Notes: generated by a model not told the origin, from the sequence alone. 32,000 nucleotides of DNA from Candidatus Omnitrophota bacterium (GCA_021735045.1 JAIPHU010000001.1:60001-92000); one strand, 5' to 3'; shown: positions 612 to 32,000, numbered from the stretch's first letter. Numbers and translations are program-made.

Positions 612-1658
612 ATGCGAATAAATGATATTTTAGAATTAGCTGAAACAAAGGGTGCCAGTGATATTCATTTTACAGTAGGACTTCCTCCGATTTTGCGAAT
701 AGATGGAGAGTTGATTATCACCGATCTGGAAACTTTAACTAAAGAGAGTTCTAAGTCATTAGTCTATAGTATGATTAACGATGAAAGAAAGGCTGCTTTT
801 GAAAAAAATCGAGAATTAGATTTTTCATTTACTTTACCGGATATGGACCGTTATAGGATAAACGTTCATTACCAACGAGGTAATGTCGAGGCAGCCTTAA
901 GAAGGGTCCCTAAAAAAATTCCTTCAATTGAATCATTAGGGCTGCCGGATATTGTTTTTGATTTAATAAAAAAACCAAATGGGCTAATTCTGGTTACCGG
1001 GCCAACTGGAACGGGAAAAAGTACAAGTTTAGCTGCTATGGTTGATTTTATTAACAAAAACAGAAAGGAACTTATTATCTCTATCGAAGATCCTATAGAG
1101 TTTGTCTATAAAAATCAAAAAAGTATTATTAAGCAGAGGGAGGTTTTTGCTGATACACACTCTTTTCCTGAAGCTTTAAAAAGAGGTCTTAGGCAGGATC
1201 CAGACGTTATGGTTGTAGGAGAAATGCGAGATCTTGAAACAATTACAACTGCCTTGACTGCGGCTGAGACTGGCCACCTTGTACTTGCTACTTTGCATAC
1301 ACCAGATGCTCCCCAAACGATACAAAGAATTATAGATGTTTTTCCCCCTCACCAACAAAGGCAAATAACAGTTCAACTTGCTGAAAGCCTACAGGCGGTT
1401 ATTTCACAAGTTTTATTACACCGGGCTGAAAAAAAGGGAAGAATATTAGCTACAGAAGTAATGGTTTCAACTCCAGGAATAAGAAACCTAATCAGGGAAA
1501 ATGATATCGCCCAAATTCCTTCTCTGATTCAGATGGGTGGACAACACGGAATGTATACTATGGATAAGTGCCTAAAAACTTTTTATAAGAAAGGATTGAT
1601 TACAAAAAAGGCAGCTTTAAGAAAAGTAAAAAATATAGCGGAGTTTAATAGCTTATAA
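612..1658 (+). CDS. pilT: Type IV pilus retraction ATPase PilT
   Basis: 348 aa, colinear with PilT. Walker A GPTGTGKST, Asp box DPDVMVVGEMRDLET, His box AAETGHLVLATLHT, and GIRNLIRE near the C-terminus. SD GGAGG at 601-605. Confidence 0.9.
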   Translation: MRINDILELAETKGASDIHFTVGLPPILRIDGELIITDLETLTKESSKSLVYSMINDERKAAFEKNRELDFSFTLPDMDRYRINVHYQRGNVEAALRRVPKKIPSIESLGLPDIVFDLIKKPNGLILVTGPTGTGKSTSLAAMVDFINKNRKELIISIEDPIEFVYKNQKSIIKQREVFADTHSFPEALKRGLRQDPDVMVVGEMRDLETITTALTAAETGHLVLATLHTPDAPQTIQRIIDVFPPHQQRQITVQLAESLQAVISQVLLHRAEKKGRILATEVMVSTPGIRNLIRENDIAQIPSLIQMGGQHGMYTMDKCLKTFYKKGLITKKAALRKVKNIAEFNSL

Positions 1659-21577: not shown

Positions 21578-21580
21578 CTA

Positions 21581-21603
21581 AGGGGACGTTTCCCTGCTTT
21601 GTA
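21581..21603 (+). terminator. Short GC hairpin (AGGGGA-CGT-TTCCCT) + GCTTTGT; possible terminator of the LPS operon
   Basis: Begins 4 nt after the stop codon at 21575-21577. 6-bp stem including one G:U pair, 3-nt loop, weak T-tract. Confidence 0.35.
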
Positions 21604-21682
21604 ACTTATTGACCGGTAAGATGTTATAGAACCTTGTTTTCTAACCAGTTCTAAAGACGGAAAATGCTTGTTTGTAACTTAT

Positions 21683-21772
21683 TTATAACCAAAAGGTTAT
21701 AAACGAGGGGAACGTCCCCTTTTGTAAGCTGTTACGCCCAGCGGCGTCTTTCATAGTTAAATGATAGTTCAT
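21683..21772 (-). CDS. Hypothetical 29-aa small ORF (MNYHLTMKDAAGRNSLQKGTFPSFITFWL)
   Basis: ATG at 21772-21770 is preceded by the strongest SD in the window, AAGGAGGTG (21787-21779), with 6 nt between the end of that 9-mer and the ATG. Stop TAA at 21685-21683. No similarity recognised. Confidence 0.3.
   Translation of the reverse strand: MNYHLTMKDAAGRNSLQKGTFPSFITFWL
21706..21724 (+). terminator. Short GC hairpin (GGGGA-ACG-TCCCC) + TTTTG; terminator-like
   Basis: 5-6 bp G/C stem, 3-nt loop, T4 run. It is a near copy of the 21581 hairpin and lies inside the minus-strand small ORF. Confidence 0.3.
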
Positions 21773-21815: not shown

Positions 21816-21895
21816 TTGAAAATAGAAAATTAACATTTCTATTTAGTAATAAGTATTAACATTTCTATATTGTAATAACAGATCTAAATATGGGG

Positions 21896-21923
21896 TTGAC
21901 ATCGTTTGTCTGTATAGTATAAT
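21896..21923 (+). promoter_or_regulatory. Consensus sigma70 promoter TTGACA-16 nt-TATAAT upstream of rex
   Basis: TTGACA at 21896-21901 and TATAAT at 21918-21923, 30 nt upstream of the rex ATG. Confidence 0.6.
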
Positions 21924-21953
21924 TATTAATCGTTACTAATTTCACGATTTGCT

Positions 21954-22577
21954 ATGAAATCAATTTCACGTAAAACTATTGACAGAGCTCTTTTGTATAT
22001 CAGAGCTTTAGAAAATTTGCTTAAAGAAAAGAGAGATAAAATTTCTTCTTTGGAATTAGCCGATATTACCGGCAGCTCTGACGTCCAAATCCGAAAAGAT
22101 ATATCTTTTTTTGGTAAAGTAGGAACACCTCGAATAGGTTATGAAACAAAAAAATTAAAAGATATTCTAGAAAATTTTATTCTCCAAAACAATGTTGTTC
22201 ATATCGCCTTATTTGGTGTAGGTAATTTAGGAAAAGCAATATTAAAATATCCGGGCTTTCAAACTGATAAAATTAAATTAGTTGCTGCTTTTGATAAAGC
22301 AAAAAGCAAGTTATTAAAAGAAATTAATGGAATTAAAATTTATCCGGTTGAGAGGTCTGTTGAATTAATTAAAAAAGTTCATGCTGAAATTGGAATCATT
22401 GCAGTTCCTCCCAGAAGCAGCCAAGAGGTTGCGGATATTATGGTTAAAGCGGGTTTAAAAGGGATAATAAATTTTGCACCAAGTTGCATCTCTGTTCCTA
22501 AAAACACATTTGTTAAGAATATAGATTTTTCAATAGAAATATTATCGATTTTTTCTCATACTCAATTTCAGAAATAA
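21954..22577 (+). CDS. rex: Redox-sensing transcriptional repressor Rex
   Basis: 207 aa. Winged-helix region SSLELADITGSSDVQIRKDISFFG, Rossmann LFGVGNLGKA, and C-terminal INFAP. Confidence 0.9.
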   Translation: MKSISRKTIDRALLYIRALENLLKEKRDKISSLELADITGSSDVQIRKDISFFGKVGTPRIGYETKKLKDILENFILQNNVVHIALFGVGNLGKAILKYPGFQTDKIKLVAAFDKAKSKLLKEINGIKIYPVERSVELIKKVHAEIGIIAVPPRSSQEVADIMVKAGLKGIINFAPSCISVPKNTFVKNIDFSIEILSIFSHTQFQK

Positions 22578-22597
22578 ATAATTTTTAGGAGGTAGGT

Positions 22598-22969
22598 ATG
22601 GCAAAAATTTTAATGGTAGATGATGACAGAGAATTTTTAGAAGCATCTAAGGCAGTGCTTTCGGCTGAAGGTTATCAAGTTATATTGACTAAAAATGTTT
22701 CGCAAGCTGAAAAAAAGATCAAAGAAGAGAAGCCGGATATGATTTTTCTTGATGTGATGATGGAAGCACCTGATGATGGTATTGTTTTTGCCCATAAATT
22801 AAAAAAAGAAAATGTTGGTATTCCAATTGTTATGTTAAGTGCTATAGGTAAAGTTACCGGATATAGCCATAACCGTTGTGATGAGGTTATGCCTTGTGAT
22901 GGGTTTTTAGAAAAACCGGTTAATCCAAAAAGCTTATTAAATAAGGTTAAAAAGATCGTAGGTAAATAA
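22598..22969 (+). CDS. Stand-alone response-regulator receiver (CheY-like) protein
   Basis: 123 aa. Acidic pocket DDD (8-10), phospho-acceptor D52 (IFLDVMM), S81 (VMLSA), K106 (LEKP). No output domain. Confidence 0.9.
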   Translation: MAKILMVDDDREFLEASKAVLSAEGYQVILTKNVSQAEKKIKEEKPDMIFLDVMMEAPDDGIVFAHKLKKENVGIPIVMLSAIGKVTGYSHNRCDEVMPCDGFLEKPVNPKSLLNKVKKIVGK

Positions 22970-22986
22970 TAGAGGAGAGTGTAGTC

Positions 22987-23466
22987 ATGGATAAAATGTG
23001 TTCAGTATCAAAAACCATAACTCAGGGAAAAAAGAAAATCCAGGTTTGTGATGCAACTCGTAGCCAACTTATTCCGATATTACGGCAAATTCAGGAAAAA
23101 AAAGGTTATATATCTGATAAGAACATGCAAGAAGTTGCGTCTTCTTTGGGGATACATCCAGTTGAAGTTTATTCTGTTGTTACCTTTTATTCTTTTTTAA
23201 CTACTGAAAAAAAAGGAAAACATATTATCAGAATAAGTAATTGTATATCCTCGGTTATGGCAGGCAGTAAAAGAATTATTAAAATTTTTGAAAAAGAGTT
23301 AGGAATAAAGGTGGGAGAAACTACTAAAGATAAAAAGCTTAGCTTAGAAGAGACTAGTTGCATTGGGATGTGTGATCAAGCCCCAGCTGCTTTAATTGAC
23401 GGAAATTTAATCGGCAAGCTAACGGCAAAAAAAGTAAAAAATATAGTTAAAGAATTAAAAAAGTAA
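22987..23466 (+). CDS. NuoE/HydC-like thioredoxin-fold [2Fe-2S] subunit, divergent (module 1)
   Basis: 159 aa, colinear with NuoE/HydC (EVYSVVTFYSFL, SCIGMCDQAPA). The first cluster motif reads C-ISSV-M instead of C-x4-C. Confidence 0.8.
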   Translation: MDKMCSVSKTITQGKKKIQVCDATRSQLIPILRQIQEKKGYISDKNMQEVASSLGIHPVEVYSVVTFYSFLTTEKKGKHIIRISNCISSVMAGSKRIIKIFEKELGIKVGETTKDKKLSLEETSCIGMCDQAPAALIDGNLIGKLTAKKVKNIVKELKK

Positions 23467-23481
23467 AATAGGGGAGAAAAT

Positions 23482-24663
23482 ATGACAAAAACGCGTAAAG
23501 GACCAATTATATTTAGTAAAAGCAAGCCTTTTTCTGGATTAAAGAATGCGATAGATATAGGCAGAAGTGAAGTTTTAGATTATGTACGTAAATCTAATAT
23601 TAAAGGTAGGGGCGGAGCAGGTTTTCCCACTGGTGTTAAATGGAATCTTACCGCTACTGCTTCTGATAAGAAAAAATATGTTATTTGTAATGCCGATGAG
23701 GGTGAACCAGGAACTTTTAAAGATAGAGTCCTTTTAGATGAATATGCAAAACTTGTTTTTGAGGGAATGGTTATTTGTGCGTTTGCTGTAGGTGCTGATG
23801 AAGGCATCTTGTATCTACGCGGTGAATATATATCATTTCTTCCTGAGCTGGAAAAAACCTTAAATCAGATGAGAAAGAATAATTTATTAGGTAAAAATAT
23901 TTTAGGCAAAAAAGGCTTTAATTTCGATATAAAGATAAGATTAGGTGTCGGGGCCTATGTTTGCGGTGAAGAAACTTCTCTTATTGAATCATTAGAAGGA
24001 TATAGAGGTGAACCCCGCAACAAACCTCCTTTCCCTACCAATACTGGATTTGCAGGTCATCCTACAGTTATAAATAATGTTGAAACTTTTGCAGCAATAG
24101 CTCATATAATTTTAAAAGGGCCAGATTGGTTTAGATCTATTGGAACTGAAAAATCTTCTGGGTCTAAACTAATAAGTGTATCTGGTGATTGTAAAAAACC
24201 AGGTGTTTATGAAATTCCTTTTGGAACCACTATTAAAAAAATTTTAAAACTAACAGAAGCTAAAGACACTAAAGCTGTTGAAGTAGGGGGTGCATCAGGA
24301 GTTTGTGTGGCTAAATCAGAATTTGGCAGAAAGATTGCTTACGAAGATTTATCTACTGGTGGTTCTATTATAATTTTTAGCAAAAAAAGGGATTTATTGG
24401 AGGTAGCTAAAAATTTTCTTGATTTTTTTGCTGAAGAATCTTGCGGCCAATGCACACCTTGCCGAGAAGGTATTCCGGTGTTACAAGAAAAATTAGATAA
24501 ATTACAACAAAAAAAAGCAACAAAGGGTGACCTTGAAGATATTTTTTCTTTAGCTGAGACTATGTACTTAGCTTCAAAGTGTGGCTTAGGCCAAACTGCT
24601 GCTTCAGCTTTTGTTTCGATATTAAGTAATTTTAAAAAAGATTATGTTTTGGTTAAATCATAA
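23482..24663 (+). CDS. NuoF-like NAD(P)H/FMN-binding subunit, minimal form (module 1)
   Basis: 393 aa. GRGGAGFPTGVKW, ICNADEGEPGTFKDR, GAYVCGEETSLIESLEG, ESCGQCTPCREG...KCGLGQTA. It lacks the N-terminal 2Fe-2S and C-terminal 2x[4Fe-4S] domains seen in the paralog at 28243. Confidence 0.85.
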   Translation: MTKTRKGPIIFSKSKPFSGLKNAIDIGRSEVLDYVRKSNIKGRGGAGFPTGVKWNLTATASDKKKYVICNADEGEPGTFKDRVLLDEYAKLVFEGMVICAFAVGADEGILYLRGEYISFLPELEKTLNQMRKNNLLGKNILGKKGFNFDIKIRLGVGAYVCGEETSLIESLEGYRGEPRNKPPFPTNTGFAGHPTVINNVETFAAIAHIILKGPDWFRSIGTEKSSGSKLISVSGDCKKPGVYEIPFGTTIKKILKLTEAKDTKAVEVGGASGVCVAKSEFGRKIAYEDLSTGGSIIIFSKKRDLLEVAKNFLDFFAEESCGQCTPCREGIPVLQEKLDKLQQKKATKGDLEDIFSLAETMYLASKCGLGQTAASAFVSILSNFKKDYVLVKS

Positions 24664-24678
24664 GGAGGAATCTTATTT

Positions 24679-26595
24679 ATGGCTAAAGAACCTTTTACAA
24701 AACCTACTTCGCGTGCTCCGGTAAGTCAAAGGTCGCAAACTGTAGGTAAAATTAACAAAAAAGCTTTAGGGGGAAAAGTAACTGCAGTAATTGATGGTAT
24801 TGAAATTAAAGTTCCTATGGGAACAACTATTTTAGAAGCAGCTAAAAAAATAGGTATAAAAATACCGACTCTTTGCCATCATGAGGATTTATGTTTAGCT
24901 GGGGTATGCCGTGTTTGCTTGGTTGAAGTGGAGGGGCAAAAAACCTTACAGGCATCTTGTTCTTATCCGATTATTCATAATGTAGTAGTTAAAACTTATT
25001 CATCACGGGTAAGGCGAGCTAGAAAAAATATTATTCATCTTCTTTTACGCAATCATTATGGTGAATGTTATTCTTGTGAAAAAAATAATAATTGTGAACT
25101 GCAAGATTTAGCAGAAGAATATGGTGTTACCGAATATAAGTTTGGCCATATTCAGGAGAGGCGTTTTCAGCCTGATCTTTCGAGTTCTGCTATAACTAAA
25201 GATAATGATAAATGTATAAATTGTAAAAGATGTATCAGGACTTGCATTGATTTGCAAGAAGTTGGAGTTTATGAATCAGTTAATCGCGGGCCAGAAACAA
25301 AAGTTTCGACTTATTTAAATAAGCCTTATTCAGATGTAATTTGTATAAATTGCGGACAATGCGTAAATAGATGCCCTACAGGAGCCCTAAAGGAGAAAAA
25401 TGATGTTGCAGGTGTATGGAAAGCTATAGATAATCCTAATAAGCATGTTGTGATTCAAACTGCACCAGCACCACGGGCAGCAATTGGAGAAGAGTTTGGT
25501 CTGGCTCCAGGCACCTCAGTTACCAAACAGTTAAATACAGCTATAAAAAGAGTTGGGTTCGATAAGGTTTTTGATACTAACTCGTCAGCAGATTTAACTA
25601 TTATGGAAGAAGGTACAGAACTATTGCTTAGGCTTAAGAAATATTTAAAAGAGCAGGATAAAAGCGTTAAATTACCTCAGTTTACTTCTTGTTCGCCGGG
25701 TTGGATCAAATATTTAGAAGATTTTTATCCGGATAAAGTAGATTATTTATCAACTTGTAAAAGCCCCCAACAGATGTTTGGGGCATTAATCAAGACATAT
25801 TATGCAAAAAAAGCAAAAATTGATCCTAAAAACATTGTTAGTGTATCATTGATGCCGTGTGTTGCTAAAAAATATGAAGCTAAAAGACCAGAGATGAATG
25901 ATTCAGGTTATCAGGATGTTGATTATGTTTTAACCACCAGAGAACTTGCGAGCATGGTCAAGGAATGCGGATTAGATTTACCTCGGTTACCGGAATCTGA
26001 CTTTGATAAGCCTCTAGCTATAGGAAGCGGTGCAGGATTAATTTTTGGTGCAACCGGTGGTGTTATGGAAGCAGCTTTACGAACTGCTTATGAATTAGTT
26101 ACCGGTGATGAAGCTCCTTTTAAAAAATTAAGAGTTACTCCAGTAAGAGGTATGGAAGGTATCCGTGATGCTCAAATTCCGATAAAAAAAGCTAAAAAAG
26201 AGTGGAAATTTCTTGAGGGTGCCAGCTTAAAGGTTATGGTTGCTCATGGTACAGCTAATGCTAAAAAAGTAATGGAGATGCTTGAGTTGGGTAAGTTAGA
26301 TGATTATCATTTTGTTGAAATTATGGCTTGCCCGGGTGGCTGTTTAGGTGGAGGGGGTCAACCTATCCCTACTACCGACGCAATAAGGAAACAACGGGCA
26401 AAAGCAATATATGCTGAGGACGAACAACTCACTATTAGAAAATCTCATCAGAATCCTGTAGTGGAGACTCTTTATAAAGAGTTTTTAACTGATGGGCCAT
26501 GTGGGCACAAGAGCCACAAATTTTTACATACTCATTATTCTCCGGGTAGTAGTTGGATAGGTAAAAAACCGAGAGTAAAAGTTAGGAAAAAATAA
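24679..26595 (+). CDS. [FeFe]-hydrogenase catalytic-subunit paralog (M3-type domain order) with TSCSP variant of H-cluster motif L1 (module 1)
   Basis: 638 aa. N-terminal 2Fe-2S domain, H-x3-C-x2-C-x5-C cluster, and 2x C-x2-C-x2-C-x3-CP. H-domain motifs are FTSCSPGW, MPCVAKKYE and EIMACPGGCLGGGGQP. Confidence 0.9.
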   Translation: MAKEPFTKPTSRAPVSQRSQTVGKINKKALGGKVTAVIDGIEIKVPMGTTILEAAKKIGIKIPTLCHHEDLCLAGVCRVCLVEVEGQKTLQASCSYPIIHNVVVKTYSSRVRRARKNIIHLLLRNHYGECYSCEKNNNCELQDLAEEYGVTEYKFGHIQERRFQPDLSSSAITKDNDKCINCKRCIRTCIDLQEVGVYESVNRGPETKVSTYLNKPYSDVICINCGQCVNRCPTGALKEKNDVAGVWKAIDNPNKHVVIQTAPAPRAAIGEEFGLAPGTSVTKQLNTAIKRVGFDKVFDTNSSADLTIMEEGTELLLRLKKYLKEQDKSVKLPQFTSCSPGWIKYLEDFYPDKVDYLSTCKSPQQMFGALIKTYYAKKAKIDPKNIVSVSLMPCVAKKYEAKRPEMNDSGYQDVDYVLTTRELASMVKECGLDLPRLPESDFDKPLAIGSGAGLIFGATGGVMEAALRTAYELVTGDEAPFKKLRVTPVRGMEGIRDAQIPIKKAKKEWKFLEGASLKVMVAHGTANAKKVMEMLELGKLDDYHFVEIMACPGGCLGGGGQPIPTTDAIRKQRAKAIYAEDEQLTIRKSHQNPVVETLYKEFLTDGPCGHKSHKFLHTHYSPGSSWIGKKPRVKVRKK

Positions 26596-26596
26596 C

Positions 26597-27346
26597 GTGA
26601 ATAGTAAAAAATATAAGAAAAAAGATAAGTTAGATATTTCTAATCAAGAACTTGAGTCTTCTGATAAACAGTATCTTGATTTAGTTGGTTTTGTCTCGCA
26701 TGAGCTAAAAGGAATTCTTTCTTCGGTTGTTTTAAATACCTATAATTTGCAAAATGGCCTATTGGGAGATCTAAATCCAGCTCAGAAAAAAACATTAAAA
26801 TCTATAAGTAGAAATTTAGATTATTTAACTACAACTGTTCGTAATTTTTTGAATTTTAGCCGGATTGAAAAACAAGAGTTATCTTTGAATAAATTTCGTT
26901 GTCTATTCAAAGAAGATATAGTTGATGTTTCCATTGATTCATATTCACAAGCAGCTGCAGATAAAGATATAAAAATTATAAATAAAGCAATCTCTTCGCT
27001 AGAGGTAGAAGTAGATTCAGGATTGTTACAGATAGCATTAAATAATCTTTTATCTAATGCGATAAAATATGGCAAAGAAGGCCGGGAGGTTGTAATTTCA
27101 ACTGAATTAGATAACAATAAAGTTATAGTTGAAATATATAATCAGGGTGAATCTATAGATAAGACTGATATTGATAAGTTATTTAAAAAGTTTAGCCGTC
27201 TGCATTATCGCGGTACCGAAAAGATAAAAGGAACCGGAATTGGCCTTTATATTACCAAAGAGATTATCAACCAGCATCATGGAAATATCTGGGTTGAACC
27301 AAAGCCAGAAGGAAATAGTTTTAAGTTCAGTTTAGAGGTGGTATAA
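26597..27346 (+). CDS. Histidine kinase consisting only of DHp + HATPase domains (no sensor or TM domain)
   Basis: 249 aa. H-box FVSHELKG at about residue 36, N-box LLSNAIKYG, G2 GTGIGLYITKEI. GTG start lies 1 nt after the upstream stop codon. Confidence 0.85.
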   Translation: MNSKKYKKKDKLDISNQELESSDKQYLDLVGFVSHELKGILSSVVLNTYNLQNGLLGDLNPAQKKTLKSISRNLDYLTTTVRNFLNFSRIEKQELSLNKFRCLFKEDIVDVSIDSYSQAAADKDIKIINKAISSLEVEVDSGLLQIALNNLLSNAIKYGKEGREVVISTELDNNKVIVEIYNQGESIDKTDIDKLFKKFSRLHYRGTEKIKGTGIGLYITKEIINQHHGNIWVEPKPEGNSFKFSLEVV

Positions 27347-27371
27347 TAACGGCTCGAAAATTTTAAAAAAA

Positions 27372-28241
27372 ATGAAAAATAAAATCTTAATTATTGATGA
27401 TGATGCTGATTTTGTAGAAGCAATCTCTTTACTATTGGAAGCAAACGGTTATAAAACATTGCAAGCTTATAATGGTAAAGAAGGTTTTGCTCAAGCAAAA
27501 GAGCAGGTGCCTGATTTGATAATGTTGGATATGAAGATGGCATATCAAACTGAAGGTGCTGAAACTGCTAAAGCAATGTCAAAAGATGCAGAAATAAAGG
27601 ATATCCCAGTCATTTTAGCAACTGGAATCGGTAAAGAGTTGACTAAAAAGTTAAAAGAGATCCTTAGGAATGAAGCAATGTCAGTTAAAACTGTTATTGA
27701 AAAGCCAATAGAAGCAAAAGAGCTTCTTAAAATAATAAAGAATTATATAGGTGAAAGTGGCGGCAAAGAACATAGAGAATTAATCAAACAAATTACCAGT
27801 TTTGCTAATAAATGGAAAGGCAAGAAAGGTAATTTAGTTATGATTCTTCATGAAATACAAAATTATTATGGTTATGTACCCAGGGGTATTTCGTTTCAAT
27901 TATCTCGGTTATTAGGTATTCCTTTAGCAAGAATTTATGAAGTTATAACCTTTTATAATTTTTTCAAGCTTTCGCCTCCTGGCAAACATGTGATTTCGGT
28001 TTGTATGGGGACAGCTTGTTATCTAAAGGGTGCTGCGGAGTTAGTTGATAAGATTAAAAGTCTTCTTAAAATAGAAGAAGGCCAAACTACAGAAGACGGT
28101 TTGTTTCATCTTCAAGTTGTTAGATGCCTAGGTTGTTGTGGTCTTGCTCCTGTAGTTATGGTTGATCAAAAAATATATTCAAAAGTTGTGCCAGATAGCA
28201 TCGAAGGTATTGTTTCTAGATACAGGCAGGATAAAAGTTAA
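27372..28241 (+). CDS. hydC: Fusion: response-regulator receiver domain + NuoE/HydC-like [2Fe-2S] subunit (module 2)
   Basis: 289 aa. Residues 1-~120 form a REC domain (DDD 9-11, D53 in IMLDMKM, T84, K111). Residues ~130-289 are NuoE-like with an intact C-x4-C (VCMGTAC) and CLGCCGLAP. Confidence 0.85.
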   Translation: MKNKILIIDDDADFVEAISLLLEANGYKTLQAYNGKEGFAQAKEQVPDLIMLDMKMAYQTEGAETAKAMSKDAEIKDIPVILATGIGKELTKKLKEILRNEAMSVKTVIEKPIEAKELLKIIKNYIGESGGKEHRELIKQITSFANKWKGKKGNLVMILHEIQNYYGYVPRGISFQLSRLLGIPLARIYEVITFYNFFKLSPPGKHVISVCMGTACYLKGAAELVDKIKSLLKIEEGQTTEDGLFHLQVVRCLGCCGLAPVVMVDQKIYSKVVPDSIEGIVSRYRQDKS

Positions 28242-28242
28242 T

Positions 28243-30045
28243 ATGGATAAATTAAATCAAAAAAAAATAGAAGAACTTAGAGAAAAACTTCAAAAGCAAA
28301 GACCGGGTTTTGTTAAGGTTGGAGTAAGTTCTTGTGGAATAGCAGCTGGAGCAAATGATGTATTAGATCGTTTTATAGCTTTAAAAAAGAAAAATAATTT
28401 AGATATTGAAATTAGAAAGTGTGGTTGTGCTGGTATGTGTTATGCAGAGCCATTGGTGGAAGTTTCTTTAGACGGTAGAGATTCTGTAACTTATAAAGAA
28501 GTTACACCTGAACTAGTAGAAAAAATAGTAAAAAATCATATTATCTCCGGAAAAATCCAAGAGGATTATGTTTATAAAACCGATACTGAAAAAAAACAGT
28601 TTAAGTTAATTCTTTCCAATTGTGGAAAAGTTAACCCAGAAAGTATCAATGATTATATTTCTTTGGGTGGTTACCGAGCTGTAGAAAAAGTTCTTATTAA
28701 AGAAAATAGGCAAGAGGTAATTGATCAGTTGAAAATAAGTGGTTTGAGAGGAAGAGGCGGGGGAGGTTTTCCCACCTGGTTAAAATGGAATTTTGCTAAA
28801 GGAGTTAACGCAGATAAAAAGTATATAATCTGTAATGGCGACGAGGGTGATCCCGGGGCTTATATGGATAGGAGCCTTCTAGAGGGTAATCCTCATGCAA
28901 TTATTGAGGGGATGATTATTGCTGGTTTTGCTGTAGGGGCAGATGAAGGGTTTTTTTATATTCGAGCCGAATATCCTCTTGCAATTTCTCGAGTTCAAAA
29001 AGCAATTGATGCTGCTATTGATTATGGATTATTGGGAGAAAATATTTTAGATACTGGGTTTAACTTTAATTTACAAATTCGTCTTGGTGCCGGTGCGTTT
29101 GTTTGTGGAGAAGAAACTGCTTTAATTGCATCTATTGAAGGTAAGCGTGGCTATCCTTCTCCGCGTCCTCCCTATCCTTCTGTAAAAGGCCTTTGGTCGA
29201 AACCAACGGTGATCAACAACGTTGAAACTTTAGCTAATATTCCAATTATATTTGATAAAGGAGGAGATTGGTTTTCAAAAATTGGAAGTCAAAACTCTAA
29301 AGGTACCAAGGTATTTGCTCTCACCGGGAAAGTTAAAAATTCTGGTTTAGTTGAAGTTCCGATGGGCACGACTTTAGGTGAAATTGTTTATGGTATTGGT
29401 GGCGGTGTATCTGGCGGCAAAGTGAAGGCGATTCAGACTGGTGGGCCTTCCGGAGGAGTTATTCCTAAAGAATACTTTGATACTCCTGTAAATTATGAAA
29501 GTTTGCAAAAATTAGGTTCCATAATGGGTTCCGGCGGAATGATTGTTATGGATGAAAAGGATTGTATGGTTGATATCGCTAAATTTTATATGAAATTTTG
29601 TGTAGAAGAGGCTTGTGGTAAATGTTCTCCTGGCCGCATTGGAACTTATCAGATGTTACAATATCTTAAAAAGATATCCAAGGGTAAAGCAAACATGAAT
29701 GATTTACAGTTATTAGAGGATATTGCTTATGCGGTTCAAAGGACCGCTTTGTGTGGGTTAGGCCAAACTGCACCTAATCCCGTAGTATCAACTTTAAAGT
29801 ATTTTCGCGATGAATATATTGCGCATATTAAAGAACAAAGATGTCCAGCGGGAAAATGTAAAGATTTAGCAAAATATAAGATAGTTGAAGACAAGTGTAA
29901 AAAATGTGGTGCTTGTATTAAAGTTTGTCCAGTAGAGGCGATTTCAGGAGATAAAGATAAGGGCTACAAGATAGATCAAAAAAAGTGTATCCAGTGTGGT
30001 AAATGTTTCCAAGTTTGTAGTTTTGATGCAATAAAAAAAGGTTAA
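28243..30045 (+). CDS. hydB: HydB/NuoF-like subunit, full-length bifurcating-type architecture (module 2)
   Basis: 600 aa from ATG 28243. N-terminal thioredoxin-like 2Fe-2S (SSCGIAAG...CGCAGMC), GRGGGGFPTWLKW, ICNGDEGDPGAYMDR, GAFVCGEETALIASIEG, and C-terminal 2x[4Fe-4S] (CKKCGACIKVCP, CIQCGKCFQVC). Confidence 0.9.
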   Translation: MDKLNQKKIEELREKLQKQRPGFVKVGVSSCGIAAGANDVLDRFIALKKKNNLDIEIRKCGCAGMCYAEPLVEVSLDGRDSVTYKEVTPELVEKIVKNHIISGKIQEDYVYKTDTEKKQFKLILSNCGKVNPESINDYISLGGYRAVEKVLIKENRQEVIDQLKISGLRGRGGGGFPTWLKWNFAKGVNADKKYIICNGDEGDPGAYMDRSLLEGNPHAIIEGMIIAGFAVGADEGFFYIRAEYPLAISRVQKAIDAAIDYGLLGENILDTGFNFNLQIRLGAGAFVCGEETALIASIEGKRGYPSPRPPYPSVKGLWSKPTVINNVETLANIPIIFDKGGDWFSKIGSQNSKGTKVFALTGKVKNSGLVEVPMGTTLGEIVYGIGGGVSGGKVKAIQTGGPSGGVIPKEYFDTPVNYESLQKLGSIMGSGGMIVMDEKDCMVDIAKFYMKFCVEEACGKCSPGRIGTYQMLQYLKKISKGKANMNDLQLLEDIAYAVQRTALCGLGQTAPNPVVSTLKYFRDEYIAHIKEQRCPAGKCKDLAKYKIVEDKCKKCGACIKVCPVEAISGDKDKGYKIDQKKCIQCGKCFQVCSFDAIKKG

Positions 30046-30047
30046 TT

Positions 30048-31793
30048 ATGCCCAAAGCAATAATAAATAACAAAGAAGTCATAGTTGAGGAAGGTACAAC
30101 AATTCTTGATGCTGCCAAAAAGATAAATATAGATATTCCTACTTTGTGTAAGCATCCTGACTTAGATGCCAGTGCTGCTTGCGGTATTTGCGTAGTTAAG
30201 GTCAAAGGGTCAAAAAAGATGCTTCGGGCTTGCTGTACTGCGTTAGAAGAAGGTATGAATATAATCACTCATGACAATGAACTTCAGAAGATAAGAAGGA
30301 CGGTTATCGAATTAATTTTATCAAATCATCCTAATGATTGCCTTCAATGTGCGCGCAACAATAACTGTGAGCTACAAAAACTAGCTGCTGATTTTGGAAT
30401 AAGGGAATTTCCTTTTCCTCAATTTTTAAGAGATGTCCCTGAAGATGAATCTACTAAAACCATTGATCTTGTTCCTTCAAAGTGTATTCTTTGTGGCAGG
30501 TGTGTACAGGTGTGCCAGGATTTACAAGATGTTTGGGCACTTTCTTTTATTGAAAGAGGACACAAAACTAGGATTTCTGCTGCCGGAGATATTAATTTGT
30601 CAGAAAGTCCTTGTATTCGTTGTGGGCAGTGTTCGGCCCATTGTCCTACCGGTGCTATTGCCGAGCATGATCAAACCGAAGATGTTTGGAGGGCTTTATA
30701 TAACGAGAAAAAATATTGTATGGTTCAAATTGCTCCTGCTGTAAGAGTTGCGATCGGAGAAGCATTTAATCTTCCTATTGGCGCGAATTTAACTGGGAAA
30801 ATTTATTCGGCTCTCCGGCGTCTAGGTTTTAATGCAGTATTTGATACTTCTTTTGGCGCAGATGTTACTGTTATGGAGGAAGCTACTGAGTTTGTGGAAC
30901 GTTTTGTTCATAAAAAGGGTAAATTACCTTTGATAACTACTTGCTGCCCCTCTTGGGTTGATTTTATGGAAAAATTTTATCCGGATATGATTGATAATTT
31001 TTCTTCCTCAAAATCTCCTCATGAGATGTTAGGGGTATTAGCAAAAACTTATTTTGCCCAAAAAAATAAAATAGATCCAAAAGATATGTATATGGTATCA
31101 ATCATGCCTTGTACATCCAAAAAATATGAAATAAGCCGCAGCAATCAAATGTATGCCTCAGGATATCAAGATGTTGATACATCATTAACTACTCGTGAAT
31201 TAGCAAGAATGATAAAACAGGCCGGAATTGATTTTGCTAATTTAGAAGAAGAGAAGGCTGATAATATTTTAGGTGATTATACCGGGGCGGGAGTAATTTT
31301 TGGCGCAACCGGTGGGGTTATGGAAGCAGCTTTACGAACTGCTTATTTTTTAATTACTGGTAAAAACTTTAAAGAGGTAAAATATAATGATGTGCGTGGC
31401 CTTGAGGGTGTAAAAGAAACAGTTGTAAATATTGCGGGAGAAAAAGTGAGGATAGCTATAGCTCATGGTATGGGAAATGTTGAAGCTGTTTTAAATAAAA
31501 TCCGTCAAGCTTTGGCTGAAGGCAAAAAGCCTCCTTATGATTTTATTGAAGTTATGGCTTGTCCGGGTGGCTGTATCGGTGGGGGCGGCCAACCTTATGG
31601 AGTTACGGATCAGCTTCGTATTGCCAGGGCATCTGGCCTGTATAGTGATGATGATAAAAAAGAGATTCATTTTTCTCATGATAATCCATACATAAAACAA
31701 TTATATGATAGCTTTTTAGGTAAACCGTCAGGAGAAAAAGCTAAAAAATTATTGCATACGCGCTATGTGCCGCGTCCGCTTTACAAAAAATAG
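30048..31793 (+). CDS. hydA: [FeFe]-hydrogenase catalytic subunit HydA, canonical H-cluster motifs (module 2)
   Basis: 581 aa in M3 domain order. TTCCPSW, MPCTSKKYE, EVMACPGGCIGGGGQP. Confidence 0.9.
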   Translation: MPKAIINNKEVIVEEGTTILDAAKKINIDIPTLCKHPDLDASAACGICVVKVKGSKKMLRACCTALEEGMNIITHDNELQKIRRTVIELILSNHPNDCLQCARNNNCELQKLAADFGIREFPFPQFLRDVPEDESTKTIDLVPSKCILCGRCVQVCQDLQDVWALSFIERGHKTRISAAGDINLSESPCIRCGQCSAHCPTGAIAEHDQTEDVWRALYNEKKYCMVQIAPAVRVAIGEAFNLPIGANLTGKIYSALRRLGFNAVFDTSFGADVTVMEEATEFVERFVHKKGKLPLITTCCPSWVDFMEKFYPDMIDNFSSSKSPHEMLGVLAKTYFAQKNKIDPKDMYMVSIMPCTSKKYEISRSNQMYASGYQDVDTSLTTRELARMIKQAGIDFANLEEEKADNILGDYTGAGVIFGATGGVMEAALRTAYFLITGKNFKEVKYNDVRGLEGVKETVVNIAGEKVRIAIAHGMGNVEAVLNKIRQALAEGKKPPYDFIEVMACPGGCIGGGGQPYGVTDQLRIARASGLYSDDDKKEIHFSHDNPYIKQLYDSFLGKPSGEKAKKLLHTRYVPRPLYKK

Positions 31794-31848: not shown

Positions 31849-31873
31849 CCAACCTTCTTAGGTTGGTTTTTTT
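31849..31873 (+). terminator. Rho-independent terminator
   Basis: CCAACC (31849-31854), loop TTCTTA, GGTTGG (31861-31866), followed by T7. Confidence 0.7.
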
Positions 31874-31889: not shown

Positions 31890-32000
31890 ATGGAACAAAG
31901 GCTGGGTTTTGTGGGAATTATTATTGAAGAGCGTTTAAAAGTGGCAAAAAAGGTTAATTCTGTTCTTTTTGATTTCGGTGAAATTATCATTGGGAGGATA
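31890..32000 (+). CDS. N-terminal part of a small TM1266-like (ACT/NikR-C-like) putative iron-only hydrogenase system regulator; 3' end lies outside the window
   Basis: SD AGGAGG at 31880-31885 and ATG at 31890. MEQRLGFVGIIIEERLKVAKKVNSVLFDFGEIIIGRI matches my recollection of the TM1266 family pattern (I.I.VE.R....VN..L..F...I.GR.G). Only 37 codons are visible. Confidence 0.5.
   Translation, partial: MEQRLGFVGIIIEERLKVAKKVNSVLFDFGEIIIGRI

What the first reader, a model, noticed from the sequence alone, without database searches (positions are those of the whole stretch)
21954..31793. Candidate novel system: Rex plus two tandem REC/HydC/HydB/HydA modules linked by a sensor-less histidine kinase, with no DNA-binding output
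The gene order is rex, REC, hydC', hydB', hydA', HK, REC::hydC, hydB, hydA. Intergenic gaps range from 1 to 25 nt, and a terminator appears only after 31793. The two modules are paralogous: module 1 spans 22598-26595 and module 2 spans 27372-31793. Module 2 has the full architecture of NADH/ferredoxin-dependent electron-bifurcating HydABC enzymes. Module 1 is altered in every redox subunit: HydC' has lost one [2Fe-2S] cysteine, HydB' lacks the accessory FeS domains, and HydA' has Ser at the proton-relay Cys position. The only kinase has no input domain. Neither receiver protein has a DNA-binding or enzymatic output other than the hydrogenase subunit it is fused to (module 2) or encoded next to (module 1). 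The simplest reading is that the module 1 complex acts as an H2 or redox-poise sensor feeding the kinase, and that phosphorylation of the receiver domains modulates the hydrogenase post-translationally. Rex would add NADH-dependent transcriptional control. The sensory [FeFe]-hydrogenases I know of (HydS type) use a PAS domain and Ser/Thr kinase/phosphatase partners, so this design would be distinct.
Basis: partly seen in the sequence, partly recalled or inferred. Interest (0 to 1): 0.85.

Follow-up and report, generated by a model that had tools for sequence, protein, structure and literature searches.

The report
Kinase-linked twin [FeFe]-hydrogenase operon, Omnitrophota

Summary
The gene order, gaps and domain content are confirmed. 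The window is from a public Candidatus Omnitrophota MAG (one protein 100% identical).

Module 2 is a canonical bifurcating-type HydABC. Module 1 is not a degraded sensor. HydB' carries every signature of non-bifurcating NADH-dependent hydrogenases. HydA' keeps the proton-relay Cys and the full proton pathway. Its Ser replaces a [4Fe-4S]H ligand, exactly as in the active A. woodii enzyme. Module 1 also occurs as a stand-alone operon beside hydEFG.

The REC::HydC fusion is a conserved family with intact phospho-acceptor residues. A kinase gene lies immediately upstream in 20 of 21 assessable loci. In most genomes that kinase is about 610 aa with a periplasmic Cache sensor and HAMP, and it occurs without module 1. 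The sensor-less kinase here is a clade-specific truncation, starting at the DHp helix and still under strong purifying selection (dN/dS 0.05-0.08).

Best reading: two catalytic hydrogenases under Rex control, plus a dedicated two-component system whose output is the HydC subunit itself. I found no description of REC–HydC coupling in the literature searched. The "module 1 senses H2 for the kinase" idea is not supported. Direct phospho-control of the enzyme is plausible but untested.

The parts
21829..21878 (+). 24-nt direct repeat x2 (ATTAACATTTCTATWTWGTAATAA, spacing 26) just upstream of the -35 box; candidate regulator site, function unknown
21896..21923 (+). sigma-70-type promoter, TTGACA-16 nt-TATAAT (12/12)
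   Evidence: sequence
21930..21947 (+). Rex-box-like imperfect palindrome TCGTTACTAATTTCACGA between the -10 box and the rex ATG (10/14 to TTGTGAA-N4-TTCACAA)
   Evidence: same position in L006 (identical), L008 and L015; relatives have 12-14/14 boxes upstream of rex. Weak on its own (about 4% of random 58-nt segments).
21954..22577 (+). rex, redox-sensing repressor (207 aa)
   Evidence: NF003995, 197.5 bits vs cut-off 126
22598..22969 (+). stand-alone receiver (REC1, 123 aa); D8-D10, D52, S81 and K106 present; Cys94/Cys100 pair
22987..23466 (+). hydC' (159 aa), NuoE-like, with rearranged first Cys pair (S-x-C-x2-S) and intact CxxxC
23482..24663 (+). hydB' (393 aa), NuoF core only; non-bifurcating signature PGTFK and GVGAYVCGE
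   Evidence: criteria from PMC7311640
24679..26595 (+). hydA' (638 aa), group-A [FeFe]-hydrogenase; L1 TSCSPGW (C338 relay kept, S339 at the cluster-ligand position), L2 MPCVAK, L3 EIMACPGGCLGG
   Evidence: PMC10021017
26597..27346 (+). soluble histidine-kinase core (249 aa from GTG): DHp (H35) + CA only. The first ~20 codons derive from a deleted CMD gene.
27372..28241 (+). REC::hydC fusion (289 aa): receiver 1-127 (D9-D11, D53, T84, K111), helix 131-147, NuoE domain with all four Cys
28243..30045 (+). hydB (600 aa): N-terminal 2Fe-2S domain + NuoF core + C-terminal 2x[4Fe-4S]; bifurcating signature PGAYM and GAGAFVCGE
30048..31793 (+). hydA (581 aa), group-A [FeFe]-hydrogenase with canonical TTCCPSW / MPCTSK / EVMACPGGCIGG
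31849..31866 (+). intrinsic-terminator-like hairpin followed by TTTTTTTATT
31890..32000 (+). start of a TM1266-family [FeFe]-hydrogenase-system gene (runs off the window); hydF/G/E follow it in relatives
   Evidence: synteny

Best explanation
**What it is.** The locus is an Omnitrophota hydrogen-metabolism operon transcribed from one strong promoter and probably repressed by its first gene product, Rex, when NADH/NAD+ is low. It encodes two catalytic [FeFe]-hydrogenases with different thermodynamics.
- Module 1 (HydA'B'C') is a non-bifurcating, NADH-dependent, ferredoxin-independent enzyme of the S. wolfei Hyd1ABC / S. aciditrophicus HydAB kind. It is workable only at low H2.
- Module 2 (HydABC) is an NADH+ferredoxin electron-bifurcating/confurcating enzyme.

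**The signalling layer.** A dedicated two-component system is superimposed. The histidine kinase autophosphorylates on H35 and transfers phosphate to receiver domains that belong to the NuoE-like HydC subunit. The receiver is fused to HydC in module 2 (D53) and encoded immediately upstream of hydC' in module 1 (D52).

**Proposed output (inferred).** The output is the enzyme itself. Phosphorylation changes receiver conformation or dimerisation at the HydB/HydC NADH-FMN lobe, next to the mobile ferredoxin 'bridge'. That would switch activity, ferredoxin coupling or oligomeric state, and so partition flux between the two hydrogenases.

**The kinase.** In most genomes it is a membrane protein with a periplasmic Cache sensor. 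In this clade it has been cut back to its soluble catalytic core and is still maintained. Its input here is therefore either absent (constitutive kinase/phosphatase balance) or supplied by a protein partner.

**Shown:** anatomy, family membership signatures, synteny, conservation and selection.
**Inferred:** phosphotransfer, its effect on the enzymes, and Rex binding.
For: **Anatomy and operon:**

**Module 2 is bifurcating-type**
- HydB aligns over its full length (600-750 bits) to the beta subunits of bifurcating enzymes, against about 360-385 bits to NuoF.
- It has PGAYM and GAGAF plus both accessory FeS domains.
- HydA is closest to T. kivui and A. woodii HydA1.

**Module 1 is non-bifurcating-type**
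- HydB' has T/K at Tm HydB positions 232/234, Tyr in GxGAYVCGE, and no accessory FeS domains (criteria).
- Of about 100 HydB sampled, only module-1 orthologues have this signature.
- Some relatives fuse HydC'::HydB', as S. aciditrophicus does.
- Sub-type II enzymes lacking B3/B4/B5 are regarded as non-bifurcating.

**HydA' is competent**
- The relay Cys, E279/E282/R286/S319 equivalents and the L2/L3 motifs are conserved.
- The Ser ligand is as in active A. woodii HydA1.
- It exceeds the NCBIfam 'NADH-dependent [FeFe] hydrogenase A6' cut-off (820.9 vs 765).
- dN/dS is about 0.04.
- Stand-alone module-1 operons sit next to hydF/G/E.

**Two-component system**
- The top 120 hits to REC::HydC all carry REC+NuoE.
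- Acceptor residues are invariant or nearly so, and the AF2 model shows a full (βα)5 fold.
- A kinase lies immediately upstream in 20 of 21 assessable fused loci, against 8 of 68 plain loci with any kinase within 10 kb.
- A lineage at about 34% identity repeats the Cache-kinase + REC::HydC design.
- REC-NuoE-REC-NuoE occurs in a formate-dehydrogenase-type locus.
- The truncated kinase keeps its H, N, F and G2 boxes and has dN/dS 0.045-0.079. It survived an in-frame deletion that removed the neighbouring CMD gene.

**HydC position:** it lies next to the mobile bridge and the FMN site.

**Rex boxes:**
Against: - No biochemical data exist for any member. Phosphotransfer and any effect on activity are untested.
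- The AF2 inter-domain orientation is not confident (pTM 0.51), so nothing shows how REC could act on HydB/HydC.
- HydC' in this clade has only three Cys in the canonical site. If its cluster were essential, module 1 could be impaired.
- I could not place HydA'/HydB' in a tree with the S. wolfei or S. aciditrophicus sequences themselves. Assignment rests on published signature positions, and I mapped the 'Tyr vs Phe' position by inference, because the paper's number 367 does not match my count on 7P5H_B.
- The Rex-like site in this clade is weak on its own.
- One fused locus (L019) has no adjacent kinase, and one module-1 operon (L094) has no REC, so the coupling is not obligatory.
- A transcriptional output through an unlinked regulator cannot be excluded. 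L090 has a sigma54-type response regulator in the same cluster.
Confidence: 0.6

Rival explanations
1. Module 1 is a catalytically crippled H2/redox sensor that physically feeds the input-less kinase, which then phosphorylates the receivers to tune module 2. This would be an [FeFe] analogue of the [NiFe] regulatory hydrogenase-HoxJ system.
For: - In the only clade where the kinase has lost its own sensor, module 1 is always present in the same operon.
- The kinase core is still under selection, so it must receive or need no signal.
- HydC' has an altered cluster site.
- The module-1 REC carries a partly conserved Cys pair.
Against: - The relay Cys and proton pathway are intact, and the Ser is at the ligand position, as in active A. 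woodii HydA1.
- HydB' traits are those of active non-bifurcating enzymes.
- There is no PAS or other signalling domain.
- Module 1 exists as an independent operon with the maturases and without a kinase.
- The kinase + REC::HydC pair exists without module 1 and with its own Cache sensor.
- The short kinase looks like a single evolutionary event, so co-occurrence has no statistical weight.
Confidence: 0.08
2. The receivers are not outputs but phosphate sinks or connectors. The real output of the kinase is transcriptional, through a DNA-binding response regulator encoded elsewhere. REC::HydC merely buffers or reports phosphorylation.
For: - The divergent locus L090 has a sigma54-type response regulator and a REC-REC protein between the Cache kinase and REC::HydC.
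- Type-I loci carry a second, stand-alone REC after hydA.
- Branched pathways with single-domain receivers as sinks are well known (own knowledge).
Against: - No DNA-binding response regulator is present in the window or in any of the ~17 Omnitrophota loci examined.
- A sink has no need to be covalently fused to an enzyme subunit. Yet the fusion (or REC-hydC adjacency) is maintained in several formats and lineages, including an FDH-type NuoEF enzyme.
Confidence: 0.15
3. The signalling layer is vestigial in this clade. After losing its sensor the kinase is functionless or only a phosphatase, and the receivers act, if at all, as phosphorylation-independent structural appendages of HydC.
For: - Loss of TM, Cache, HAMP and signalling helix.
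- Further deletion of the neighbouring CMD gene.
- L019 and L094 show that the kinase or REC can be dispensed with.
Against: - dN/dS of the kinase is 0.045-0.079 at dS of about 0.9-1.8, the same as the enzyme genes.
- All catalytic boxes and all receiver acceptor residues are retained.
- The CMD deletion was in-frame and preserved the kinase ORF.
Confidence: 0.07

Closest known systems
Electron-bifurcating [FeFe]-hydrogenase HydABC (T. maritima 7P5H; T. kivui 8A6T; A. woodii 7Q4V)
   Same: Module 2 has the same three subunits and cofactor-binding domains, the same HydB accessory FeS domains and the same bifurcation-type residue signature. HydA is 560 bits to HydA1 of T. kivui and A. woodii.
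   Different: HydC carries an N-terminal phospho-receiver domain, and the operon includes a cognate histidine kinase. Neither is mentioned in the structural papers or the review of these enzymes that I read.
[quoted passage not shown] 2024)
   Same: Module 1 has HydB' without the N- and C-terminal FeS domains, T/K at Tm positions 232/234 and Tyr at the FMN-site motif. Relatives have HydC'::HydB' fusions like S. aciditrophicus.
   Different: - A stand-alone receiver gene precedes hydC'.
- The first Cys pair of HydC' is rearranged.
- HydA' has a Ser ligand on [4Fe-4S]H (as in A. woodii), a 33-aa N-terminal extension and a Lys-rich tail.
- Direct phylogenetic placement with the characterised enzymes was not done.
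Putative sensory [FeFe]-hydrogenases (HydS/HfsB, HydDB groups C1-C3)
   Same: A hydrogenase paralogue is encoded next to signalling proteins. HydDB already lists a putative 'histidine kinase-linked' group C1.
   Different: HydA' is group A, has no PAS domain and keeps the Cys near the H-cluster whose absence characterises HydS. Here the signalling domain sits on the diaphorase-side subunit HydC, not on the hydrogenase subunit.
[NiFe] regulatory hydrogenase HoxBC-HoxJ-HoxA (HydDB group 2b)
   Different: That system ends in a DNA-binding regulator and its sensor is a dedicated low-activity hydrogenase. Here there is no DNA-binding output in the locus, and module 1 looks catalytic.
Response regulators with enzymatic outputs (CheB, PleD, RpfG and similar; own knowledge)
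   Same: A receiver domain is covalently attached to the protein whose activity it controls, with a cognate kinase encoded alongside.
   Different: The 'output' here is a [2Fe-2S] subunit of a multi-subunit redox enzyme. I found no description of a REC-NuoE/HydC architecture in the searchable literature.

Membership tests
Electron-bifurcating HydABC (group A3) - module 2 | HydA with complete H-cluster motifs L1/L2/L3 | tested here: met
   TTCCPSW / MPCTSK / EVMACPGGCIGG; NCBIfam A6 801.7 bits vs cut-off 765
Electron-bifurcating HydABC (group A3) - module 2 | HydB with N-terminal [2Fe-2S] and C-terminal 2x[4Fe-4S] domains in addition to the NuoF core | tested here: met
   Pfam Fer4 x2 at the C-terminus; full-length alignment (residues 25-600) to the beta subunits of bifurcating enzymes
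Electron-bifurcating HydABC (group A3) - module 2 | Losey 2020 residue signature: Ala/Glu at Tm232, Met at Tm234, Phe near FMN | tested here: met
   DEGDPGAYMDR and GAGAFVCGE. The mapping of the Phe/Tyr position is my inference.
Electron-bifurcating HydABC (group A3) - module 2 | Ferredoxin- and NAD(H)-coupled H2 turnover | not testable with these tools
   Needs enzyme assays
Non-bifurcating NADH-dependent [FeFe]-hydrogenase - module 1 | Beta subunit lacks the additional FeS-cluster domains | tested here: met
   393 aa; only Complex1_51K + NADH_4Fe-4S
Non-bifurcating NADH-dependent [FeFe]-hydrogenase - module 1 | Thr/Ser at Tm232, Lys/Ser/Ala at Tm234, Tyr near FMN | tested here: met
   DEGEPGTFKDR and GVGAYVCGE; numbering counted on 7P5H_B; conserved in all module-1 orthologues
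Non-bifurcating NADH-dependent [FeFe]-hydrogenase - module 1 | Catalytically competent H-domain | tested here: met
   C299, E279, E282, R286, S319, M353, C355, K358, M497, C499 and C503 equivalents are present. C300 is Ser, as in active A. woodii HydA1.
Non-bifurcating NADH-dependent [FeFe]-hydrogenase - module 1 | Clusters phylogenetically with S. wolfei / S. aciditrophicus beta subunits; ferredoxin-independent activity | not tested
Sensory [FeFe]-hydrogenase (HydS, group C) | PAS (or other signalling) domain on the hydrogenase polypeptide | tested here: not met
   No such Pfam hit on HydA'; definition from PMC8924675
Sensory [FeFe]-hydrogenase (HydS, group C) | Lack of the conserved Cys near the H-cluster | tested here: not met
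   C338 aligns with CpI C299
Two-component system | Kinase with HisKA H-box and HATPase_c N/F/G2 boxes | tested here: met
Two-component system | Receivers with acidic pocket, acceptor Asp, Thr/Ser and Lys | tested here: met
   REC::HydC D9-11/D53/T84/K111; REC1 D8-10/D52/S81/K106; (βα)5 fold
Two-component system | Sensor (input) domain on the kinase | tested here: not met
   Absent in the window and three sister species; present (TM-Cache-TM-HAMP) in 13 other loci
Two-component system | Kinase-to-receiver phosphotransfer | not testable with these tools
   Only synteny supports pairing
Rex regulon | Rex protein with winged-helix N-terminus and Rossmann domain | tested here: met
Rex regulon | Rex operator (TTGTGAA-N4-TTCACAA) at the promoter | tested here: inconclusive
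   10/14 match at 21930-21947, positionally conserved in the clade. Scores are 12-14/14 in relatives, but chance level is about 4% for this site alone.

The most novel reading that the evidence does not exclude
In the clade that lost the kinase's Cache sensor, the soluble kinase core has been rewired to take its input from a hydrogenase complex. The input would come from module 1, through REC1/HydC' or a redox-active Cys pair, or from module 2. Intracellular H2 or NADH poise would then be converted directly into receiver phosphorylation, toggling flux between the non-bifurcating and the bifurcating enzyme. That would be a self-sensing, purely post-translational hydrogenase switch.
Probability: 0.1. 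Interest if true: 0.85.

Novelty: new variant of a known kind. Interest (0 to 1): 0.6.

Why it matters
**What would be new.** The regulation of multimeric [FeFe]-hydrogenases discussed in the papers I read is transcriptional or involves putative sensory paralogues. None mentions direct post-translational control of a bifurcating HydABC. A receiver domain covalently attached to HydC sits at the NADH/FMN lobe, beside the mobile ferredoxin bridge. With a cognate kinase conserved across many Omnitrophota genomes, and repeated in a distant lineage and in a formate-dehydrogenase-type NuoEF enzyme, it would be a new class of response-regulator output.

**What it makes testable.**
- It offers a natural handle on how the bifurcation branch is gated: phosphomimetic versus non-phosphorylatable variants, and cryo-EM with and without BeF3-.
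- A non-bifurcating and a bifurcating hydrogenase sharing one operon and one kinase suggests that these uncultured, often syntrophic or host-dependent bacteria choose between a 'low-H2' and a 'high-H2' route for NADH re-oxidation.

**Annotation.** It corrects public annotations, which label these proteins 'dehydrogenase', 'NAD(P)H-dependent oxidoreductase subunit E' or '[NiFe] hydrogenase diaphorase'.

Tried and rejected
- **Rfam scan of the whole window:** no hits.
- **Rex consensus search in the window with up to 3 mismatches:** no more hits than shuffles give, and none at the promoter. The promoter site appears only at 4 mismatches and needs the comparative evidence.
- **Literature searches for the TSCSP motif, REC-HydC/NuoE fusions and Omnitrophota hydrogenase regulation.** These found the Melainabacteria note on TSCSPGW and the A. 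woodii Ser-ligand statement, but nothing on REC-HydC.
- **Losey's 'position 367' Phe/Tyr criterion.** It could not be matched by number on 7P5H_B, where residue 367 is Val by my count. I used the only Phe/Tyr difference that separates the two classes in about 100 sequences, GxGA[F/Y]VCGE.
- **AF2 of REC::HydC.** It gave a sound receiver fold but no confident inter-domain geometry (pTM 0.51), so I drew no mechanistic inference from it and ran no fold search.
- **Rejected: the kinase as a pseudogene** (dN/dS, intact boxes).
- **Rejected: TSCSPGW as a sensor signature.** It is also present in HydA partnered with ~1050-aa HydB in other loci, and in A. woodii.
- **Rejected: REC and NuoE in L045/L052/L055 being split by frameshift.** Three independent contigs have separate ORFs.
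- **Not attempted:** complex prediction (kinase with receivers or with HydA'B'C'), because the tool folds single chains only.


Full report
**1. Observation**

Pfam and NCBIfam assign them as follows.

| Gene | Coordinates | Assignment |
|---|---|---|
| rex | 21954-22577 | Rex, 197.5 bits vs cut-off 126 |
| REC1 | 22598-22969 | stand-alone receiver |
| hydC' | 22987-23466 | NuoE-like HydC' |
| hydB' | 23482-24663 | 393 aa, only the NuoF FMN and 4Fe-4S regions |
| hydA' | 24679-26595 | 638-aa [FeFe]-hydrogenase |
| kinase | 26597-27346 | 249 aa, HisKA + HATPase_c only |
| REC::hydC | 27372-28241 | REC::NuoE fusion |
| hydB | 28243-30045 | full-length HydB, 600 aa, as in relatives |
| hydA | 30048-31793 | 581-aa hydrogenase |

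- Both HydA paralogues exceed the NCBIfam cut-off for 'NADH-dependent [FeFe] hydrogenase, group A6' (820.9 and 801.7 vs 765).
- Intergenic gaps are 1-25 nt.
- A perfect sigma-70 promoter precedes rex, and a hairpin with a T-run follows hydA.
- The next ORF (31890 onward) is a TM1266-family gene, which in relatives leads hydF/G/E.
- The rest of the window is housekeeping and LPS-core biosynthesis, with no other two-component genes.
- The source is a Candidatus Omnitrophota MAG. HydB' has a 100% identical NCBI entry, and REC::HydC is 91% identical to a second MAG.

**2. Residue-level claims**

*HydA'.*
- The L1 motif is TSC338-S339-PGW. In the phmmer alignment to CpI, C338 pairs with C299 (the proton relay) and S339 with C300, a [4Fe-4S]H ligand.
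- The equivalents of E279, E282, R286, S319, M353, C355, K358, M497, C499 and C503 are all present.
- The best solved relative, A. woodii HydA1 (600 bits), has the same TSCSPGW.
- Katsyv et al. state that in that enzyme one Cys ligand of the A1 cluster is replaced by Ser301. [quoted passage not shown]
- TSCSPGW is also found in every HydA' orthologue, and in a third HydA type partnered with a ~1050-aa HydB.
- So the Ser is neither at the relay position nor a mark of a sensor.

*HydB'.*
- Losey et al. (PMC7311640) distinguish non-bifurcating from bifurcating beta subunits in three ways. Non-bifurcating subunits have fewer FeS domains, Thr/Ser rather than Ala/Glu at Tm HydB 232, and Lys/Ser/Ala rather than Met at 234. 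They also have Tyr rather than Phe near the FMN.
- Counting on 7P5H_B, HydB' reads PG-T-F-K and GVGA-Y-VCGE. Module-2 HydB reads PG-A-Y-M and GAGA-F-VCGE.
- Among about 100 HydB from 94 loci, only module-1 orthologues carry the non-bifurcating pattern.
- The mapping of the Phe/Tyr site is my inference, because the paper's residue number does not match my count.

*HydC'.*
- The canonical C-x4-C is S-x-C-x2-S in the window.
- Across the HydC' family the first Cys is shifted by two residues. The second is Cys in some members (L015, L092, L093) and Ser, Ala or Asn in others. The CxxxC pair and two N-terminal Cys are conserved.
- This is a clade trait under selection (dN/dS 0.08-0.11), not decay.
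[quoted passage not shown] They argue that the HydC cluster is likely to matter for bifurcation (PMC9499530). A relaxed site in a non-bifurcating enzyme is therefore unsurprising.

**3. Comparative genomics**

I annotated 94 related loci with probes taken from the window.

| Layout | Gene order | Loci |
|---|---|---|
| Type I | rex - kinase (~610 aa: TM-Cache_3/Cache_2-TM-HAMP-DHp-CA) - REC::hydC - hydB - hydA - REC - TM1266 - hydF/G/E; no module 1 | L001, L002, L013, L014, L016-L018, L020, L021 |
| Type II | REC - hydC' - hydB' - hydA' - CMD inserted between rex and the long kinase | L004, L012, L015 |
| Type III | as type II, with a 229-230-aa kinase | L006, L008, L011 and duplicates |
| Window | type III minus the CMD gene | window |

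*Kinase association.* Of 21 fused REC::HydC loci with usable upstream sequence, 20 have a kinase gene immediately upstream. Of 68 plain-HydC loci, 8 have any kinase within 10 kb, and 4 of these are split or variant forms of the same system.

*Module 1 elsewhere.*
- It occurs on its own, 730 kb from the kinase locus in the same 3.36-Mb genome, beside TM1266-hydF-hydG and with its REC but no kinase (L092).
- It occurs with a fused HydC'::HydB', as in S. aciditrophicus (L093).
- It occurs without any REC (L094).
- The HydB' family has more than 120 clusters at 62% identity or above, almost all from Omnitrophota.

*Breadth of the fusion.* An exhaustive search of 1.84 billion representatives shows the Omnitrophota REC::HydC family as one 50% cluster. 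There are four divergent full-length REC::NuoE clusters and a REC-NuoE-REC-NuoE protein.
- One divergent case again has a Cache-HAMP kinase next to REC::HydC-HydB-HydA, together with a sigma54-type regulator (L090).
- The tandem protein belongs to a NuoF + molybdopterin (formate-dehydrogenase-type) locus (L091).

**4. The kinase and the receivers**
- The short kinases begin exactly at the DHp helix. Everything upstream (TM1, Cache, TM2, HAMP, signalling helix) is gone, while the H, N, F and G2 boxes are kept.
- In the window a ~270-nt in-frame deletion removed the CMD gene and left about 20 of its codons as the kinase N-terminus, starting at GTG 26597.
- Pairwise dN/dS among the window, L006 and L008 is 0.045-0.079 for the kinase, within the range of the other eight genes (0.036-0.11). 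hydA' is the most constrained, at about 0.04.
- All receivers in these loci form one distinctive subfamily with intact acidic pocket, acceptor Asp, Thr/Ser and Lys. These are the fused receiver, the module-1 receiver, the trailing one and the split one.
- AF2 gives a complete (βα)5 fold joined by a helix to the NuoE domain, but no confident inter-domain geometry (pLDDT 78, pTM 0.51).

**5. Rex**
- Relatives carry near-perfect Rex boxes upstream of rex: 14/14 in L019, 13/14 in L017 and L018.
- The window's clade has TCGTTACTAATTTCACGA at the same place, between the -10 box and the ATG.
- Alone it is weak, at a chance level of about 4%. With positional conservation it makes autoregulated, NADH-responsive transcription plausible.

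**6. Interpretation**

The evidence fits two catalytic hydrogenases of different thermodynamic reach under one promoter. A two-component system is attached whose receivers belong to HydC.

- Module 1 has the sequence hallmarks of a known catalytic class.
- It lacks both defining features of sensory HydS enzymes: the PAS domain and the loss of the Cys near the H-cluster (PMC8924675).
- The sensor-less kinase is a late truncation of a Cache kinase that elsewhere works without module 1.

It remains an inference.

What drives the truncated kinase in this clade is unexplained. A constitutive kinase/phosphatase balance or a protein-borne input are both open.

**7. Novelty**
- The enzymes are members of known kinds.
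- The REC-HydC coupling with a cognate Cache kinase is, as far as the searchable literature shows, undescribed.
- HydDB lists only putative kinase-linked sensory group C1 hydrogenases, a different architecture.
- I therefore rate it a new variant of a known kind. Interest is moderate to high because it makes direct phospho-regulation of an electron-bifurcating enzyme testable.

Noticed in passing
window 21580-21721: 32-nt inverted-repeat arms (81% complementary, 78 nt apart) fold into a ~145-nt hairpin (z = -4.8). It lies in an unusually long 376-nt intergenic region before rex. The closest relative, L006, has only 82 nt there, so it may be a MITE-like insertion or the terminator of the upstream glycosyltransferase gene. 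No Rfam match.
   Followed up: partly
window 21829-21878: Two copies of a 24-nt direct repeat (ATTAACATTTCTATWTWGTAATAA), 26 nt apart, abut the -35 box of the operon promoter. This is a candidate binding site for an unidentified regulator.
   Followed up: no
window 26597-26656 vs L006 8949-9290: The window lacks the CMD/AhpD-like gene (CxxC motif KCPVC) that lies between hydA' and the kinase in all relatives. An in-frame ~270-nt deletion left its first codons fused to the kinase. CMD also precedes hydC in many plain Omnitrophota hyd operons (L044, L047, L050, L057, L059, L061, L075), so it appears to be a recurrent hydrogenase accessory of unknown role.
   Followed up: partly
window 22874-22897 (REC1 residues 93-100): The module-1 receiver has a Cys-x5-Cys pair (RCDEVMPC) in the beta4-alpha4 region. 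It is conserved in five linked orthologues and in L093, but only the second Cys is present in L092. It could be a redox-sensitive element.
   Followed up: partly
L023, L025, L029, L030, L040, L043, L045, L047, L050, L052, L055: A third hydrogenase module occurs in many Omnitrophota and related genomes: NuoE (~180 aa), a ~1050-aa HydB (NuoF fused to a large extra region) and a ~590-610-aa HydA with TSCSPGW. In L045/L052/L055 it lies behind a Cache-HAMP kinase and is followed by its own receiver gene.
   Followed up: no
L091 9001-10737: A 578-aa REC-NuoE-REC-NuoE tandem protein sits in a locus with NuoF-type and molybdopterin (formate-dehydrogenase-type) subunits and an NfnAB-like pair. Receiver tagging of NuoE-like subunits is therefore not limited to hydrogenases.
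   Followed up: partly
L090 3983-13713: In a divergent lineage (~34% identity) the order is Cache-HAMP kinase, sigma54-type response regulator, REC-REC protein, REC::HydC, HydB, HydA. This is the same design plus a transcriptional arm. A DRTGG/HATPase_c_2/Fe-hydrogenase (HydS-like) cluster lies further downstream.
   Followed up: partly
L008 14790-16187; L092 10568-11962: A Lyase_1 (aspartase/fumarase-family) gene sits between TM1266 and hydF in several maturation clusters.
   Followed up: no
window 612-1658: A T2SSE (PilT/type II-IV secretion ATPase-like) gene is inserted between the large-subunit (16-600) and small-subunit (1661-2158) genes of an aconitase-family dehydratase.
   Followed up: no
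L002, L016-L018, L020-L022 and many plain loci: The N-terminal [2Fe-2S] domain of HydB is often a separate ~115-aa gene (HydD-like) between hydC and hydB. In the window it is fused to HydB.
   Followed up: no
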